Virus record (IMG/VR): IMGVR_UViG_3300035698_011327
Span: 1-64,000 of that record
Direction: 5' to 3' (one strand)
DNA from: a virus
Length of the DNA: 64,000 bases
Made by a program: the position numbers and the translations under genes. The notes beneath the pieces were generated by a model that ran no database searches, was not told where the DNA came from, and saw only the letters and a program-made list of their open reading frames with translations. Position 1 is the stretch's first letter. Every line of letters starts with the position of its first letter. Shown one piece after another: positions 25,207 to 32,224 of the stretch.

Positions 25207-25974
25207 ATGAAAAGAAAGAGGAGGACATGTAAATGTGGGTGTGGAGATCCAGTGAAACTAGGTGGTGATCTATTTATACCAACATTGTCGATTAAGAAAA
25301 AGCTTGGTGAGATAGAAGAATATTATTTACATAAATATCAGGACAAGGGGATACCCCCTCTTCCAAAACTTGACCATAAAGAGGTCATTAAAGAGCTTTA
25401 TATTTTCAGAGAAGCAACGAATCTCTTACACCTTAAGACTATCCTTTCAAATGAGTTCTTGTGCTTTGAAGCAGCTCAAGGTCTTATGCTTGATCAGGAC
25501 TATGGAGATTTCCCTTACGTCACTCGTTCAAAAACAGGCATCGACTATGCGGCTAATTTCTGTTCCGGTCTGGGTATCGACATAGATAAGACGATCTATG
25601 TCACAAGAGCTTACAATACAAGACATGGTGCTGGGCCTCTTAGAGGTGAAGGAAAAATGGAGTCATTCTCAACTGGGATAGATGTAACTAATATCTATAA
25701 TAGTTGGCAAGACAGCCTAAGATTTGCTCCGATTAATCTTGATCGGATGAGTCAAGTTATCTTAAAAGATAGGGATATTTATAATCGGTCTGAAAAGATT
25801 CGGATGATGACTCACTTAGATACGATACCAGAAGAAACAAGGTCCATCATATTTGACGATGAGATACGCCTATCGAAAGGGGCTTTCATCGGAATAGCAG
25901 AGTATGCGTACGACATTGTCTCCTATGGTCCACGTAGATGGGATGTTGAATTAACAAAAGAATTATCATTGTAA
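25207..25974 (+). CDS. purA: chimera: HNH-type N-terminal peptide fused to the C-terminal half of an adenylosuccinate synthetase-like protein (possible pseudogene)
   Basis: MKRKRRTCKCGCG then FEAAQGLMLD.DYG.FPYVTRS, TRAYNTRHGAGP; N-terminal P-loop absent. Confidence 0.7.
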   Translation: MKRKRRTCKCGCGDPVKLGGDLFIPTLSIKKKLGEIEEYYLHKYQDKGIPPLPKLDHKEVIKELYIFREATNLLHLKTILSNEFLCFEAAQGLMLDQDYGDFPYVTRSKTGIDYAANFCSGLGIDIDKTIYVTRAYNTRHGAGPLRGEGKMESFSTGIDVTNIYNSWQDSLRFAPINLDRMSQVILKDRDIYNRSEKIRMMTHLDTIPEETRSIIFDDEIRLSKGAFIGIAEYAYDIVSYGPRRWDVELTKELSL

Positions 25975-26046: not shown

Positions 26047-26254
26047 TAGACGGTACTTTGAATGCTTACACGCAAATTATAGGTTCGAATCCTATAGTCC
26101 CCACCATTTTAGCAGATTGTGGCCATGGCCACTGGCCAAACGAGTCGCCAAGCGTCTTGGCGGGCCATTTTATGGGGACTTGGCGCAATTGGTGACGCAC
26201 TATCATATTGAGATAGCTTCAAAAGCAACGACAGCACTCTTGACTCACCGTCTA
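26047..26254 (+). ncRNA. Y-RNA-like module 1 with circularly permuted tRNA mimic (YrlA-like)
   Basis: closing stem TAGACGGT/ACCGTCTA; inside, T-arm and 3' acceptor strand with CCA precede 5' acceptor strand, D-arm and anticodon-like arm. Confidence 0.75.
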
Positions 26255-26264
26255 TTACATCTTC

Positions 26265-26392
26265 TCCAGCAGTACCACTAAGGCATACATGCAAAAATAG
26301 CTCAATTGGTTGAGCATTAGACTCTTAATCTAACTGTTACGGGTTCAAGTCCCGTTTTTTATACCATACGGCCTTTATAACTCACTGCTGGA
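26265..26392 (+). ncRNA. Y-RNA-like module 2 enclosing a tRNA-Lys(CTT)-like cloverleaf
   Basis: closing stem TCCAGCAGT/ACTGCTGGA; cloverleaf 26291-26366 with weak A-U acceptor stem. Confidence 0.75.
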
Positions 26393-26399
26393 AATTTTC

Positions 26400-26463
26400 G
26401 CACAGAACTTCTTGTCCATACATGCCATGGAACCGCAAACAAAGGACATATGACTCTCTGTGC
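26400..26463 (+). ncRNA. Y-RNA-like module 3 (minimal)
   Basis: GCACAGA/TCTGTGC and TGTCC/GGACA stems with AC, ATACATGC and GACTC motifs. Confidence 0.7.
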
Positions 26464-26473
26464 TTCGTCTTCT

Positions 26474-26580
26474 AAGGTAGCACTCTTAGAGCATACATGC
26501 GACCAAAGGACTCATACTCCTGCCAAAAGTGTAGGCACGCAAACCTACAGATTCATCCTGCTCTTAGGACTCGCTGCCTT
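26474..26580 (+). ncRNA. Y-RNA-like module 4
   Basis: AAGGTAGC/GCTGCCTT and AGAGC/GCTCT stems with the same motifs; internal GTAGG/CCTAC hairpin. Confidence 0.7.
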
Positions 26581-26618
26581 TCACATTTTATAAACCACAA
26601 TCTATGAAAGGAGCAACT

Positions 26619-28091
26619 ATGACTGAAAGGGAAACGATCAGCAGAAACCAGATTGTCTCTGGCCTCCTACGCATAGGCCATGGCGACTTGGGTATCTACC
26701 AAAGCGACGGTATTGCTGCGGCTAACGAGGATGCCGAATTATTTGGGCACTTCTTGTGCTGGAACAGCAAGAACGGTGAGGTTAGAGACTCTAAGGTTGC
26801 CTTTCCTGTGTTAGCCTTGAGAGGAATAGCGGACGATGAGCTATTTGAAAATGCGGTAGCCAATCTCTGCTTACTTGACCCAAGGAATTTCCTGAGGGCA
26901 GTAACCTACCACAAATCATTACCTGTAAAGGTAACGGATGGTGGAGGGGCCTTTCTTAAAAAGGCCGTCAAGATGTACCTTAAGCATAGGCAGCATGGAG
27001 GCTTACGGAACAGCGCCCTTCTTCAGCACAGAAAATCTATGAAGGCGTTGTATGCTCTTTATCACGAAACCCCTGATCCAGTTTCACAGGCAGTTCTTTT
27101 TGATAAGAAAAAGCCTAAAGGGTCTGTCTTTGAAGCAGTAGCTAACCTTAAAGATATGACACCTACGAAAGCCGCTGGTGAAATCATGACAAAGAAGATT
27201 CCATTCCTTGTCGCTGTCGGTGCTCTTGGTGGGATCAAAGATAAACCGGACGTCATAATCGCTTTGATGGATAGGATGTCTGGTAGCGAGTTAATCAATA
27301 ACACGAAATCCCTTAAGAGGATGGGCGTTTTTGAAAACCCAGTGCTTTCTGCCGCTTACGAACAAGCTTTGGAAAAAGTAAAAACGGACAAGAAAGTGTC
27401 AAGCCTTAAGGCTAGCGTTGCCGCAAAACAGGTAGGAGGCAAGGCTAAGAAGAAGATGAAGGCAGTCCAAGAGAAAAAGCTTGTTGACCTTGGAGGCATT
27501 AAAGGCGACTGGCTTGTTCTTGGAGATGCAAGTAGCAGTATGCATGCTTCTGTAGAGATTGCTAAGCAAGTTGCTGCTCTTATTTCTCAGCAAGCGTTAG
27601 GTACGGTTGACCTTATCTTCTTTAATCAAAATGTCATCAAGCATATAGATGCTACTAATAAGACTCTTGAGGAAATTGAGCACGAAGCAAGGCTTGTTAG
27701 GGCAGGCGGGATGACTTCTTGTGGCGCTGGAATCGACTATATCAAGCGTCAAGGAAGGGTTGTTAATGGTATAGCGATTATTACCGATGGTGGCGAGAAT
27801 CAATGGCCACATTTTAGCGATGCATATATTGAGTATTCAGACCTGCTTGGTATAAAGCCAGCCGTCTACATGTACCACATTAGTGGTGATCGGGATACTA
27901 TGAGTGTGCATTGTAAGCAGCAGCAAGTACAGACCGAGAGGTTTGAGCTTGGTCACGATGTAGACTATTACAGTCTGCCTAATCTTATTAAGACTATGAG
28001 AGCAAACCGCTATGCTTTGGTAGATGAGATGATGGAGATTCCACTTTTAACCTTAAAGGACGTTTTTAGCGGAAACGGAAAGAGATCATAA
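26619..28091 (+). CDS. divergent TROVE/Ro60-like protein with C-terminal vWA domain
   Basis: ~490 aa, basic helical N-region, MIDAS DASSSM, GGMTSCG, IITDGGEN; RBS favours 26619. Confidence 0.65.
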   Translation: MTERETISRNQIVSGLLRIGHGDLGIYQSDGIAAANEDAELFGHFLCWNSKNGEVRDSKVAFPVLALRGIADDELFENAVANLCLLDPRNFLRAVTYHKSLPVKVTDGGGAFLKKAVKMYLKHRQHGGLRNSALLQHRKSMKALYALYHETPDPVSQAVLFDKKKPKGSVFEAVANLKDMTPTKAAGEIMTKKIPFLVAVGALGGIKDKPDVIIALMDRMSGSELINNTKSLKRMGVFENPVLSAAYEQALEKVKTDKKVSSLKASVAAKQVGGKAKKKMKAVQEKKLVDLGGIKGDWLVLGDASSSMHASVEIAKQVAALISQQALGTVDLIFFNQNVIKHIDATNKTLEEIEHEARLVRAGGMTSCGAGIDYIKRQGRVVNGIAIITDGGENQWPHFSDAYIEYSDLLGIKPAVYMYHISGDRDTMSVHCKQQQVQTERFELGHDVDYYSLPNLIKTMRANRYALVDEMMEIPLLTLKDVFSGNGKRS

Positions 28092-30947: not shown

Positions 30948-31023
30948 GGTCTCATAGCTCAGCTGGAAGAGCCTTCGGCTCATAACCGAAATGTCCTTGG
31001 TTCGAACCCAAGTGAGACCACCA
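30948..31023 (+). tRNA. tRNA with CAT anticodon (elongator Met or Ile2)
   Basis: cloverleaf, TTCGG-CTCATAA-CCGAA, encoded CCA. Confidence 0.9.
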
Positions 31024-31024
31024 T

Positions 31025-31099
31025 AGTCCCATAGCTCAACTGGTAGAGCACATGACTGATAATCGTGGTACTTAAGTTCAATTCTTAATGGGACTACCA
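31025..31099 (+). tRNA. tRNA-Ile(GAT)
   Basis: cloverleaf, CATGA-CTGATAA-TCGTG, encoded CCA. Confidence 0.85.
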
Positions 31100-31118: not shown

Positions 31119-31868
31119 ATGGCGAAGAAACTGTATGAACTGTTAGCAACAGAAAGCGAATTGGCAGGGGTATTCAAGAATATTATAACCGAGACAGGGA
31201 CTAATTTCTTGAAGAAAGCAGATCGGTACACTGGGTACCATACAGAAGTCAAATATTTTGACGAGAGTGCTCCAAGAGAAGCAGATACTCACGTTAAAGT
31301 AGACGATACTGTTCCAAGTAAGCTTGCTTATACAGCTGGTCACATTACAGCGTATCTTGACGCCGTATTACAGAAAGAGTCTGCTAACCAAAAAGCCATG
31401 GCTGACGTCGTAATTGACGGCGTGGTTATAGCAACTGATGTACCAGCGACATTCCTTCTTGGGCTTGAAACTAAGTTAAAGAAAGTAAGGGACGAAGTGT
31501 ATGCGAAGATCCCTACATTACAACCCAGTATCCACTGGGATGTAGATACGAACGAGATGGAAGGTGTCTTCAAAAAGAGAGACTCTGATGAGAAATTCAG
31601 AACGAAGAAGATGATGAAGAACCATGTCCGTGCTGCCGCTACCGACAAACATCCTGCTCAAGTCGATGTCTATAATGAGGATGAGAAGATAGCAAGAATC
31701 GTTACGGATACCTGGTGTGGGATGATCTCTTCTGCTGAGAAGTCAAGGCTTTTGAATAAGGTCGATGCTTTAATCAGAGCAGTAAAGACCGCAAGGCAGA
31801 GAGCTAATTCTGTAAAGGTCGATGATGTGAAAATTGGCGAGAAACTTTTTGGTTTTATTAATTCATAA
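31119..31868 (+). CDS. coiled-coil protein of unknown function followed by a structured RNA
   Basis: 249 aa; VPATFLLGLE, ATDKHPAQV, AVKTARQRAN; strong RBS. Confidence 0.75.
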   Translation: MAKKLYELLATESELAGVFKNIITETGTNFLKKADRYTGYHTEVKYFDESAPREADTHVKVDDTVPSKLAYTAGHITAYLDAVLQKESANQKAMADVVIDGVVIATDVPATFLLGLETKLKKVRDEVYAKIPTLQPSIHWDVDTNEMEGVFKKRDSDEKFRTKKMMKNHVRAAATDKHPAQVDVYNEDEKIARIVTDTWCGMISSAEKSRLLNKVDALIRAVKTARQRANSVKVDDVKIGEKLFGFINS

Positions 31869-31871
31869 GAT

Positions 31872-32150
31872 TGGGATAGCGTCAGCTTCAATGCCTTTAA
31901 GAGTCAAGGCGCAAAACAAGCTAACCCCTGAAGGTTAGTCTTGAAACAAAGTCCATGGCTCAAGGTATCAAACTCAGATTCAAATTTAGCGTGAAACCCA
32001 ATAGCTTCAAGGCAGGGTTCTATAGAATTGTTGAAAGTCGATACACTACACCCTGGGTCGTGGGTTCGAATCCCTCCCCAGCCCCCAAAAATTATGGCTG
32101 GGTAGCTCAGTGGAAGAGCAAGGGTCTTAATCAAATTGATACGACTTTTC
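31872..32150 (+). ncRNA. ncRNA with hexamer repeats and a circularly permuted tRNA mimic
   Basis: T-arm 32060-32076, CCCAGCC-C-CCA, 8-nt linker, GGCTGGG, D-arm 32105-32119, ACCCT/AGGGT stem leading out. Confidence 0.7.
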
Positions 32151-32224
32151 AATATACTTCATAGACGAGCCGTCATAACTTATTACGCAATGGTTAATAT
32201 CCATTAAATAAAATGACATAGACA

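What the first reader, a model, noticed from the sequence alone, without database searches (positions are those of the whole stretch)
26079..26216. Module 1 cargo is a circularly permuted tRNA with an internal CCA and a GC-rich insert
Seen: order is T-arm (ATAGG-TTCGAAT-CCTAT), 3' acceptor strand AGTCCCC-A-CCA, about 67 nt with hairpins (GTGGCCATGGCCAC, CGCCAAG...CTTGGCG), 5' acceptor strand GGGGACT, D-arm, then CTATC-ATATTGA-GATAG with a non-canonical loop. Inference: RNase P and 3' trimming could remove the insert and give a two-piece RNA with a free CCA end still tethered to the clasp through the variable-loop position.
Basis: partly seen in the sequence, partly recalled or inferred. Interest (0 to 1): 0.7.

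Follow-up and report, generated by a model that had tools for sequence, protein, structure and literature searches.

The report
Phage Y RNA with inside-out tRNA
This stretch encodes a small RNA shaped like a complete tRNA written in rotated order and clamped shut by a long stem. It is the first of four such RNAs placed in front of a phage gene for a Ro60-type ring protein, so it is a new variant of the known "Y RNA" tRNA mimics rather than a new kind of molecule.

Summary
Positions 26079-26216 hold, in order: T arm, 7-nt acceptor 3' strand, ACCA, a 67-nt insert, acceptor 5' strand, D arm and a closed anticodon arm. Rejoined in silico, the pieces are called a 76-nt tRNA by ARAGORN.

The element is the "cargo" of a stem-closed RNA (26047-26254). 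This is the first of four tandem Y-RNA-like modules directly upstream of a 495-aa protein whose predicted fold is Ro60 (Z 20), although Pfam TROVE does not detect it.

A covariance model found 42 such permuted tRNA-like elements on the gene's strand, nearly all upstream, in 27 related viral loci, with strong covariation. One third carry NCCA after the acceptor strand.

The permuted order, and RNase P opening to a two-piece CCA-ended RNA, are already published for YrlA (Chen 2014; Wang 2018). Different here: a divergent Ro60 clade, a different closing-stem motif, a closed anticodon arm (as modelled for Deinococcus Yrn1), and an encoded CCA. The insert is lineage-specific, flanked by an 8-nt direct repeat and absent from a close relative.

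Processing is plausible but unshown. This scan has noted similar phage Ro60-like/tRNA-mimic RNA sets on other DNA before.

The parts
26047..26054 (+). Closing stem ('clasp'), stem 1, 5' strand; pairs with 26247-26254
   Evidence: 8-nt perfect inverted repeat. Same layout in modules 2-4. The pattern is found only at these four places in the 76-kb genome and never on the minus strand or in shuffles.
26055..26073 (+). Clasp 5' side: AC + 4 nt internal loop, 5-nt stem 2 (26061-26065), then the conserved UUACACGC motif (family consensus WUACAYG)
   Evidence: Alignment of 14 modules from related loci: TACA(T/C)G invariant or nearly so. Resembles the conserved YUAY at the start of the V region of YrlA (PMC4201824).
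26074..26078 (+). Linker entering the T arm; U26078 = position 48, Levitt partner of A15 (26188)
   Evidence: 15:48 covaries in the family: G:C in 18 elements, A:U in 17.
26079..26095 (+). T arm, 5 bp + TTCGAAT
   Evidence: 99.6% of cells paired; 4 of 5 pairs with double-sided changes.
26096..26106 (+). Acceptor 3' strand AGTCCCC, discriminator A, encoded CCA
   Evidence: All 8 ordinary tRNA genes of this phage also encode NCCA.
26107..26173 (+). 67-nt insert in the acceptor loop: two GC-rich hairpins, bounded by the 8-nt direct repeat CCATTTTA (26104-26111 and 26165-26172)
   Evidence: Unique in the genome and absent from the viral collection. A related contig in run X5 has only a 12-nt loop here (table 7). 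Loops in 41 other family elements are 2-20 nt.
26174..26182 (+). Acceptor 5' strand GGGGACT, then U8 G9; predicted RNase P site between 26173 and 26174
   Evidence: 7 of 7 Watson-Crick pairs with 26096-26102. All 7 acceptor pairs covary in the family. The cleavage itself is inferred from PMC4201824.
26183..26199 (+). D arm (3 G-C pairs, loop with A14, A15, G18 G19), then A26
26200..26216 (+). Closed anticodon-type arm, 5 bp + 7-nt loop AUAUUGA (U33, G37; 'anticodon' AUU)
   Evidence: 9 of 42 family elements have such an arm, all with U33 and R37 but with different anticodons.
26217..26254 (+). Linker, stem 2 3' strand (26234-26238), internal loop CUU + GACUC (26239-26246), stem 1 3' strand (26247-26254)
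   Evidence: GACU(C/U) is nearly invariant in 14 aligned modules.
26265..26580 (+). Modules 2-4 of the same array (26265-26392 holding tRNA-Lys CUU in native order; 26400-26463; 26474-26580)
26604..28091 (+). Gene for a divergent Ro60/Rsr (helical-repeat ring + vWA domain with DxSxS), the presumed protein partner
   Evidence: AF2 model pLDDT 85. The top full-length PDB matches are all Ro60: Foldseek E 2e-10 to 4e-8 (top 12) and VIA Z 16-20 over 412-438 residues (top 10). Pfam finds only a weak vWA match. D308, S310 and S312 are invariant.

Best explanation
Positions 26047-26254 encode a Y RNA, the non-coding partner of a Ro60 ring protein. Its effector domain is a complete tRNA mimic.

The 5' and 3' ends pair into a long stem with a conserved internal loop (AC opposite GACUC, followed by UUACACGC). 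This stem is the presumed docking site for the phage Ro60 encoded 350 nt downstream.

From that stem, at the place where a class II tRNA carries its long variable arm, emerges an L-shaped tRNA body: T arm, acceptor helix closed by a loop, D arm and a closed anticodon arm. The body would recruit a host protein that recognises the tRNA elbow and tether it to Ro60, as Y RNAs do with PNPase in Deinococcus, Salmonella and Thermus phage phiLo.

The acceptor loop carries an encoded ACCA and a lineage-specific 61-67-nt insertion. The most likely fate is RNase P cleavage 5' of G26174, then endonucleolytic and exonucleolytic trimming back to CCA26106. This would discard the insert and leave two pieces of about 60 nt and 81 nt, held together by the acceptor helix, the clasp and the D/T-loop contacts.

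Shown here: the sequence elements, their covariation, the synteny, and the Ro60 fold of the neighbouring protein. Inferred: Ro60 binding, effector recruitment, and cleavage and trimming. I put the Y-RNA identity at about 0.85 and in vivo opening of the acceptor loop at about 0.5.
For: (1) The neighbouring gene has a Ro60 fold over its full length: Foldseek top 12 hits are all Ro60/TROVE, including Deinococcus Rsr and phage phiLo Ro60, with VIA Z up to 20.4 and rmsd 4.4 A over 433 residues.

(2) The same arrangement recurs. Model R1 finds 42 genuine permuted tRNA-like elements in 27 of 41 related viral loci plus the window. All lie on the strand of the Ro60-like gene, and nearly all within about 2.2 kb upstream of it.

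(3) Covariation: 96.9% of cells paired, covariation score 0.97 against 0.19 in shuffles, 0 of 500 shuffles as high. The score collapses when partners are slid by 1-3 columns.

(4) tRNA tertiary signature: U8, A14, G18G19, TTCGAAT and G53:C61 are present, and the Levitt pair switches between G15:C48 (18 elements) and A15:U48 (17), as reported for YrlA (PMC4201824).

(5) The clasp pattern occurs exactly four times in the genome, all in this gap. It occurs 19 times on the plus strand of related loci, 0 times on the minus strand and 0 times in shuffles.

(6) Precedent: YrlA has the order Rsr-binding strand, V, T, acceptor stem-loop, D. M. smegmatis YrlA, with a 7-bp acceptor stem, is cut by RNase P in vivo and in vitro and ends in CCA, and both halves stay on Rsr. 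Yrn1 is modelled with a closed 5-bp anticodon arm and no V arm (PMC4201824; 10.1101/312249). Phage Ro60 genes with Y-like RNAs upstream are known (PMC12135203).

(7) NCCA directly follows the acceptor 3' strand in 14 of 42 elements (0.66 expected), always in loops of 7 nt or more with A/U-rich tails. Elements closed by GNRA- or UNCG-type tetraloops have none.
Against: No RNA data exist: transcription, ends, Ro60 binding and cleavage are all untested (one search lists no RNA run).

The published Ro60-binding motifs (GGUCCGA; GNCGAAN0-1G) are absent from the 5' strand.

The Rfam YrlA model RF02553 does not match module 1 even at E <= 10.

The protein is not detected by Pfam TROVE.

The NCCA could be a relic of descent from CCA-encoding tandem tRNA genes rather than a functional end.

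The GC-rich hairpins of the insert would hinder 3' exonucleases.
Confidence: 0.85

Rival explanations
1. It is a Y RNA as above, but the acceptor loop is never opened. The RNA works as one closed ~208-nt molecule. The ACCA is a vestige of origin from a dimeric transcript of CCA-encoding tRNA genes, and the insert is a tolerated or neutral expansion (or an extra protein-binding hairpin) at the one place where the fold accepts extra sequence.
For: Most YrlA RNAs are thought to stay closed, and S. Typhimurium YrlA and Yrn1 are not cut by RNase P (PMC4201824; 10.1101/312249). The dimeric-tRNA origin model is cited in 10.1101/312249. All 8 tRNA genes of this phage encode CCA. R1 also lights up real tRNA-tRNA junctions, which shows how close the two arrangements are. 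Long inserts arose independently in L026 (70 nt, no CCA but ACCG). The insert folds on its own without disturbing the cloverleaf.
Against: NCCA is retained in a third of elements across loci whose Ro60 proteins are only 38-54% identical to the window's, and it is absent from tetraloop-closed elements. That pattern looks selected. The 7-bp stem is the feature that made M. smegmatis YrlA an RNase P substrate (PMC4201824).
Confidence: 0.4
2. The tRNA-like Y RNAs, including the tRNA-Lys-bearing module 2, are Ro60-held decoys or sponges for host tRNA-targeting defence nucleases or other tRNA-binding factors, rather than tethers for an exoribonuclease.
For: Module 1 is a full cloverleaf with a canonical anticodon-loop shape (U33, R37), and sister elements carry varied anticodons. 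Module 2 cages a tRNA-Lys. The phage invests in 8 tRNAs. The phiLo study proposes that phage Ro60 hijacks a host factor to escape defence (PMC12135203).
Against: There is no direct evidence. The anticodon is not conserved among orthologous elements. No defence or counter-defence gene was identified next to the array.
Confidence: 0.1
3. It is a true permuted tRNA gene whose product is matured into a working, decoding tRNA (anticodon AUU), as in the permuted tRNA genes of the red alga Cyanidioschyzon.
For: The complete cloverleaf, encoded ACCA and 7-bp acceptor are present, and ARAGORN accepts the rejoined sequence.
Against: Maturing it into one continuous tRNA would need excision and ligation at the variable-loop position. 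No RtcB-type ligase was found in the record, and bacterial splicing endonucleases are not known (10.1101/312249). A34 is unusual. Sister elements have other anticodons, no anticodon arm, or tetraloop-closed acceptors. The element sits in a Ro60/Y-RNA array.
Confidence: 0.03
4. The second insert hairpin plus the following U-run acts as an intrinsic terminator. The two halves would then be made as separate transcripts that assemble in trans (a split tRNA-like RNA).
For: The consensus scan flags 26145-26163 + GCCATTTTAT as terminator-like.
Against: There are only four U's, and they are separated from the inner stem. No promoter-like site lies in or after the insert (0 found). A terminator here would also cut off modules 2-4. 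The same scan flags a tRNA T arm, so it is unspecific.
Confidence: 0.05

Closest known systems
YrlA (Y RNA-like A; Rfam RF02553), the tRNA-mimicking Y RNA of bacterial and mycobacteriophage Rsr/Ro60 (Chen et al. 2014, PMC4201824; Wang et al. 2018, 10.1101/312249)
   Same: Encoded next to Ro60 on the same strand. Ends pair into a long stem. Internal order is T arm, closed acceptor stem-loop, D arm. It has the tRNA tertiary nucleotides and a covarying 15:48 pair. The YUAY-like motif (UUAC) comes before the T-side. Like the M. smegmatis member, it has a 7-bp acceptor stem, and that member is opened by RNase P and ends in CCA.
   Different: The anticodon stem is not formed by the two ends; it is a closed arm with a 7-nt loop, so the Ro60 stem leaves from the variable-loop position. 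There is no V arm and no GNCGAAN0-1G motif. CCA is encoded rather than added. The acceptor loop carries a 67-nt insert. RF02553 does not match it. A second RNA in the same window (32034-32151) does match RF02553 at 45 bits, below the 69-bit cut-off.
Deinococcus radiodurans Yrn1 (as modelled in Chen et al. 2014, Fig. 2E)
   Same: It is a Y RNA with a T arm and a closed 5-bp 'anticodon arm' and no V arm, so the Ro60-binding stem joins at the variable region. It is made as part of a polycistronic array with other Y RNAs and a tRNA.
   Different: Yrn1 has only partial D-arm features and a 6-nt 'anticodon' loop, and it is not cut by RNase P. Module 1 is a full cloverleaf with a 7-nt loop and an encoded CCA.
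Thermus phage phiLo Ro60 with Yrl1/Yrl2 (PMC12135203; PDB 9KOP, 9L5Y)
   Same: A phage-encoded Ro60 with Y-like RNAs directly upstream. Its structure is among the best matches of the window's protein.
   Different: The phiLo Yrls were found through the CGAA motif and are described as stem-bulge-stem RNAs, not as tRNA mimics. Protein identity to the window's Ro60 is about 15%.
Circularly permuted tRNA genes of Cyanidioschyzon merolae (Soma et al. 2007, as discussed in 10.1101/312249)
   Same: The 3' half precedes the 5' half. The acceptor ends are joined by an intervening sequence that is removed by RNase P and 3' processing.
   Different: Those precursors are circularised by a splicing endonuclease and ligase and yield ordinary tRNAs. 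Here there is no such machinery, the context is Ro60/Y RNA, and the termini lie at the tip of a long conserved stem.

Membership tests
Y RNA (Ro60-associated non-coding RNA) | Encoded close to, and on the same strand as, a Ro60/Rsr gene | tested here: met
   The module ends 350 nt upstream of a gene whose product has the Ro60 fold. The same synteny holds in 27 related viral loci.
Y RNA (Ro60-associated non-coding RNA) | 5' and 3' ends pair into a long stem interrupted by a conserved bulge or internal loop | tested here: met
   8-bp stem 1, AC/GACUC internal loop, stem 2. The pattern is specific to the plus strand of these loci: 19 against 0 on the minus strand and 0 in shuffles.
Y RNA (Ro60-associated non-coding RNA) | Published Ro60-binding sequence in the 5' strand (GGUCCGA in animals; GNCGAAN0-1G in bacteria) | tested here: not met
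   The 5' strand 26047-26073 contains neither motif. The family conserves AC, WUACAYG and GACUY instead.
Y RNA (Ro60-associated non-coding RNA) | Physical binding to Ro60 | not testable with these tools
   Needs co-immunoprecipitation or EMSA.
YrlA (Rfam RF02553) | Match to the family covariance model at or above 69 bits | tested here: not met
   Module 1 gets no hit at E <= 10. The best hit in the genome is another RNA at 32034-32151 (45 bits).
YrlA (Rfam RF02553) | T arm, acceptor-like stem-loop and D arm in that order, with tRNA tertiary nucleotides | tested here: met
YrlA (Rfam RF02553) | Anticodon-stem equivalent formed by the two ends and continuous with the Ro60-binding stem; no anticodon loop | tested here: not met
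   There is a closed 5-bp arm with a 7-nt loop at 26200-26216, and the clasp joins at the variable-loop position.
tRNA (RF00005) | Cloverleaf in the canonical 5'-to-3' order with free acceptor ends | tested here: not met
   Not called by ARAGORN in the window. Rfam tRNA gives only a 15-bit partial match at the T arm. The sequence is accepted as a tRNA only after in-silico rotation.
Ro60/TROVE protein (partner gene 26604-28091) | Helical-repeat ring plus C-terminal vWA domain with a MIDAS motif | tested here: met
   Full-length structural matches to Ro60 only. The helical N-terminal 300 residues and the vWA strands are in the model. D308-x-S310-x-S312 is invariant in 25 homologues.
Ro60/TROVE protein (partner gene 26604-28091) | Sequence match to Pfam TROVE (PF05731) | tested here: not met
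   None of 25 family members matches TROVE even at E <= 1. Sequence searches of the PDB, with the single protein and with a profile, found no Ro60.
RNase P substrate of the M. smegmatis YrlA type | 7-bp acceptor helix stacked on a 5-bp T stem, with a single-stranded leader before +1 | tested here: met
   7 Watson-Crick pairs, G+1, U-1, ACCA at 73-76.
RNase P substrate of the M. smegmatis YrlA type | Cleavage observed in vivo or in vitro | not testable with these tools
   No RNA run holds this sequence.

The most novel reading that the evidence does not exclude
The encoded-CCA class of these elements, module 1 included, is deliberately opened by host RNase P. The resulting free CCA end would be functional: a complete, possibly chargeable, two-piece tRNA held on a phage Ro60 ring through its variable-arm position. 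It would be used to capture or mislead a host factor that reads both the tRNA elbow and the 3' end, such as a synthetase, EF-Tu, the CCA-adding enzyme or a tRNA-directed defence nuclease. The tetraloop-closed class would be a second, unopened design.
Probability: 0.12. Interest if true: 0.75.

Novelty: new variant of a known kind. Interest (0 to 1): 0.42.

Why it matters
Ro60/Y-RNA particles are conserved from bacteria to humans, yet the protein bound by the tRNA-like domain of bacterial Y RNAs is still unknown.

This locus belongs to a family that appears large (353 proteins at E <= 0.001 among the 8,000 candidates scored) and carries no informative names. It is a phage Ro60 clade invisible to Pfam TROVE, and its RNAs are invisible to Rfam. 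These phages carry arrays of up to six Y-like RNAs with interchangeable interiors.

The family offers natural variants that could help identify the effector and test whether RNase P opening is a regulated step. The variants include closed versus CCA-bearing acceptor loops, and elements with and without an anticodon arm.

For genome annotation, these elements explain many 'odd tRNAs' and long non-coding gaps in large phages.

Tried and rejected
- **Rfam.** The gathering and E <= 10 scans found nothing for module 1 except a partial tRNA T-arm match.
- **Similar DNA in phage records.** A distant blastn of the whole gap found only tRNA-Lys look-alikes.
- **PDB by sequence.** Single-sequence and profile searches with the protein found nothing useful.
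- **Origin of the insert.** It is not repeated in the genome or the related loci, and its 19-mer is absent from viral contigs. I therefore found no evidence that it is a mobile element beyond the 8-nt flanking repeat.
- **Close relatives by exact words.** The 23-mer T arm + acceptor hit only an ordinary long-arm tRNA gene in one metagenome contig, which is uninformative. A degenerate 20-mer of the 5' half found nothing.
- **RNA runs.** No RNA holder is listed. The contigs laid were all DNA.
- **Full-module covariance model.** MAFFT misaligned the acceptor 5' strand when loop lengths differed, so the model was built from 8 short-loop elements only.
- **Phage-encoded helpers.** No CCA-adding enzyme (PF01743) or RtcB (PF01139) was found in the 76-kb, 78%-complete record.
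- **Recent descent from a phage tRNA.** The rotated sequence is 57-63% identical to each of the phage's tRNAs, the same as they are to each other.
- **Reviews.** Two Wolin-lab reviews were not held.

Full report
**What is there.** The window is 64 kb of a 76-kb viral contig from a salt-lake metagenome. It carries eight ordinary tRNA genes and phage replication and recombination genes. The finding lies in a 630-nt gap without convincing ORFs. The gap sits between a PurA-like ORF (25207-25974) and a 495-aa ORF (26604-28091).

- T arm 26079-26095
- AGTCCCC-A-CCA 26096-26106
- a 67-nt insert 26107-26173 with two GC-rich hairpins
- GGGGACT 26174-26180
- a D arm 26183-26198
- a 5-bp arm with a 7-nt loop 26200-26216

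The whole unit 26047-26254 is closed by an 8-bp stem. Its MFE fold recovers every helix (z = -3.1). When the two halves are joined in tRNA order in a script, ARAGORN calls a 76-nt tRNA with anticodon ATT. One correction: the loop AUAUUGA has U33 and a purine at 37, so it is canonical in form. Only the anticodon is odd.

**The neighbour is a Ro60.** Pfam sees only a weak vWA match in the 495-aa protein. None of 25 homologues matches TROVE even at E <= 1, and PDB sequence searches fail.

An AlphaFold model built on 25 homologues (pLDDT 85) nevertheless matches Ro60 over its full length and nothing else at that length. Foldseek's top twelve hits are Xenopus and human Ro60, Deinococcus Rsr and Thermus phage phiLo Ro60 (E 2e-10 to 4e-8, TM 0.57-0.66). 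VIA-align gives Z 16-20 over 412-438 residues, whereas vWA-only hits reach about Z 14 over roughly 160 residues. A DxSxS MIDAS-type motif is invariant. The family appears large: 353 proteins at E <= 0.001 among the 8,000 candidates scored. The few source names given are uninformative, such as 'hypothetical protein'.

**The RNA is one of an array.** The gap holds four consecutive units with one layout: stem 1, AC, about 4 nt, stem 2, WUACAYGC, variable interior, stem 2', about 3 nt, RACUC, stem 1'. A strict pattern for this layout hits exactly these four places in the 76-kb genome. It hits 19 places on the plus strand of the related loci, none on the minus strand and none in shuffled sequence. 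Module 2 contains a tRNA-Lys in native order, and modules 3 and 4 have short interiors.

**Comparative evidence for the permuted tRNA.** I fetched 50 viral loci that encode a homologue of the protein. A simple scan, and then a covariance model built from eight short-loop elements of other loci, found 46 matches at E < 1e-7, all on the gene's strand.

Four of the 46 are junctions between adjacent real tRNA genes. The other 42 are genuine 'T arm - closed 7-bp acceptor - D arm' elements in 27 loci plus the window, nearly all within about 2.2 kb upstream of the Ro60-like gene. The window's element scores 44.9 bits although the model has to skip the insert.

On the resulting alignment, 96.9% of cells are paired. 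All seven acceptor pairs and four of five T-stem pairs show double-sided changes. The covariation score is 0.97 against 0.19 in shuffles (0 of 500 as high), and it falls to 0.11-0.23 when partners are slid by 1-3 columns. The alignment is fitted to the model, which favours the structure. However, the stems differ completely in sequence between loci.

The Levitt pair switches between G15:C48 (18 elements) and A15:U48 (17, the window included).

**Two sub-types.** Most elements have a V hairpin ending in GGUC before the T arm and a canonical UAGCUCAGUGGUAGAGC D arm, and they run from the D arm back into the clasp. That is the published YrlA topology. The window has one of these too, at 32034-32151. 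It is the only place in the genome that the Rfam YrlA model matches over its whole length (45 bits, below the 69-bit cut-off).

Nine of the 42 elements, module 1 among them, have no V arm. They have instead a closed 5-bp anticodon-type arm with a 7-nt loop that always keeps U33 and R37 but has varying 'anticodons' (AUU, UGA, UAA, UCA, UAU). All nine are called tRNAs after rotation. Chen et al. modelled Deinococcus Yrn1 the same way (PMC4201824).

**CCA and the insert.** NCCA directly follows the acceptor 3' strand in 14 of 42 elements (0.66 expected). These loops are always 7 nt or longer with A/U-rich tails. Elements closed by GNRA- or UNCG-type tetraloops have none. All eight ordinary tRNA genes of this phage also encode NCCA.

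Loop lengths are 2-20 nt in the other 41 elements and 71 nt in the window. One other lineage (L026 and its copies) has an independent 70-nt hairpin insert after ACCG.

The window's insert is bounded by an exact 8-nt direct repeat, CCATTTTA (26104-26111 and 26165-26172). Removing one repeat plus the sequence between them leaves a family-typical 10-nt loop, ACCAUUUUAU. A DNA contig of a related phage from the same type of sample (12 differences in 73 nt) runs from ...ACCAU straight into AACAUAU-GGGGACUUGGCG.... It therefore has a 12-nt loop and no insert (table 7). Contigs in two other runs carry the insert-bearing form without a difference (table 8).

The insert is unique in the genome and absent from the viral collection. 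It is therefore a recent, lineage-specific insertion into the most tolerant site of the fold, and not a conserved device.

**How it most likely works.** By position, architecture and partner this is a Y RNA. The clasp docks on the phage Ro60 and the tRNA-like body recruits a tRNA-elbow-binding host factor. This is the tether function shown for Yrn1 and YrlA with PNPase and proposed for phage phiLo (10.1101/312249; PMC12135203).

Because its acceptor stem has 7 bp, RNase P cuts it in vivo and in vitro, the 5' piece ends in CCA, and both halves remain on Rsr (PMC4201824). Module 1 has the same 7-bp stem, G+1, U-1 and an encoded ACCA followed by an A/U-rich stretch. The cut would also remove the insert, whose presence would then cost nothing. 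I rate opening at about 0.5, because the closed-loop alternative (CCA as a relic of dimeric tRNA ancestry, as discussed in 10.1101/312249) cannot be excluded without RNA data.

**Comparison and novelty.** The concept of a circularly permuted tRNA mimic, sometimes opened by RNase P, in a Ro60-bound RNA is published.

Differences from what is published:
- The protein clade is not detected as TROVE by Pfam.
- The clasp lacks the GNCGAA/GGUCCGA motif and has its own conserved AC/GACUC/WUACAYG signature.
- Module 1 is a full cloverleaf with a closed anticodon arm.
- The CCA is encoded.
- The RNAs come in arrays of up to six.

RF02553 does not match module 1, so I do not file it as a YrlA member. 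It works like YrlA and Yrn1. This scan has already noted comparable phage Ro60-like/tRNA-mimic RNA sets, and the DUF7873-associated mimic, on other DNA, but none with this protein family.

**Verdict.** The feature is real, well supported and ordinary in principle: a new variant of a known kind, with a moderately interesting open question about the CCA-bearing loops.

Noticed in passing
window 26265-26392: Module 2 of the array cages a complete tRNA-Lys(CUU) in native order inside the same clasp. Its acceptor stem is weak (A/U-rich with a non-standard 2:71 pair) and its first bases overlap the AUACAUGC motif. ACCA is encoded.
   Followed up: partly
window 31119-32151: A DUF7873 protein gene (31119-31868, E 1e-67) is followed by an RNA whose core, 32034-32151, is a YrlA-topology permuted tRNA mimic (RF02553 45 bits; R1 45.5 bits) with CCCA in its acceptor loop. 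This is the same protein-RNA pairing the scan reported on other genomes.
   Followed up: partly
window 25207-25974: The ORF upstream of the array matches only the middle part of adenylosuccinate synthetase (Pfam positions 188-277 of 416; phrog_1211, the PurZ-like family). It is much shorter than a full enzyme, so it may be truncated or chimeric.
   Followed up: no
window, all 8 tRNA genes (26291-51363): Every ordinary tRNA gene of this phage encodes its 3' NCCA. No CCA-adding enzyme or RtcB gene was found in the 76-kb record.
   Followed up: yes
L032 1259-2410; L036 1635-2387; L005 303-790; L048 2603-2972; L046 1690-2056: Related phages carry tandem arrays of 3-6 clasp-closed modules upstream of the Ro60-like gene. 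They mix permuted tRNA mimics, native-order tRNA-like interiors (several called by ARAGORN with abnormal anticodon loops) and short hairpins.
   Followed up: partly
L026 2771-2871 (identical in L025, L028, L029): An independent 70-nt GC-rich hairpin insert sits in the acceptor loop of another permuted tRNA mimic, after ACCG rather than ACCA.
   Followed up: partly
window 30988-31053; L032 1074-1140; L018 527-595; L035 6813-6881: The model of the permuted element also scores junctions between adjacent ordinary tRNA genes (T arm of one, D arm of the next) at 32-41 bits. This illustrates how easily such mimics could arise from dimeric tRNA genes.
   Followed up: partly
window 26146-26152 vs 26179-26185: The 5' arm of the second insert hairpin (CGCCAAG) could alternatively pair with CUUGGCG, which spans the end of the acceptor 5' strand and the start of the D stem. 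A 7-nt repeat in 221 nt is expected by chance about once, so this may mean nothing.
   Followed up: no
L051 195-283: A metagenome contig holds an ordinary long-variable-arm tRNA gene whose T arm and acceptor 3' strand are identical over 23 nt to those of module 1. This is probably a coincidence among tRNA-like sequences.
   Followed up: partly
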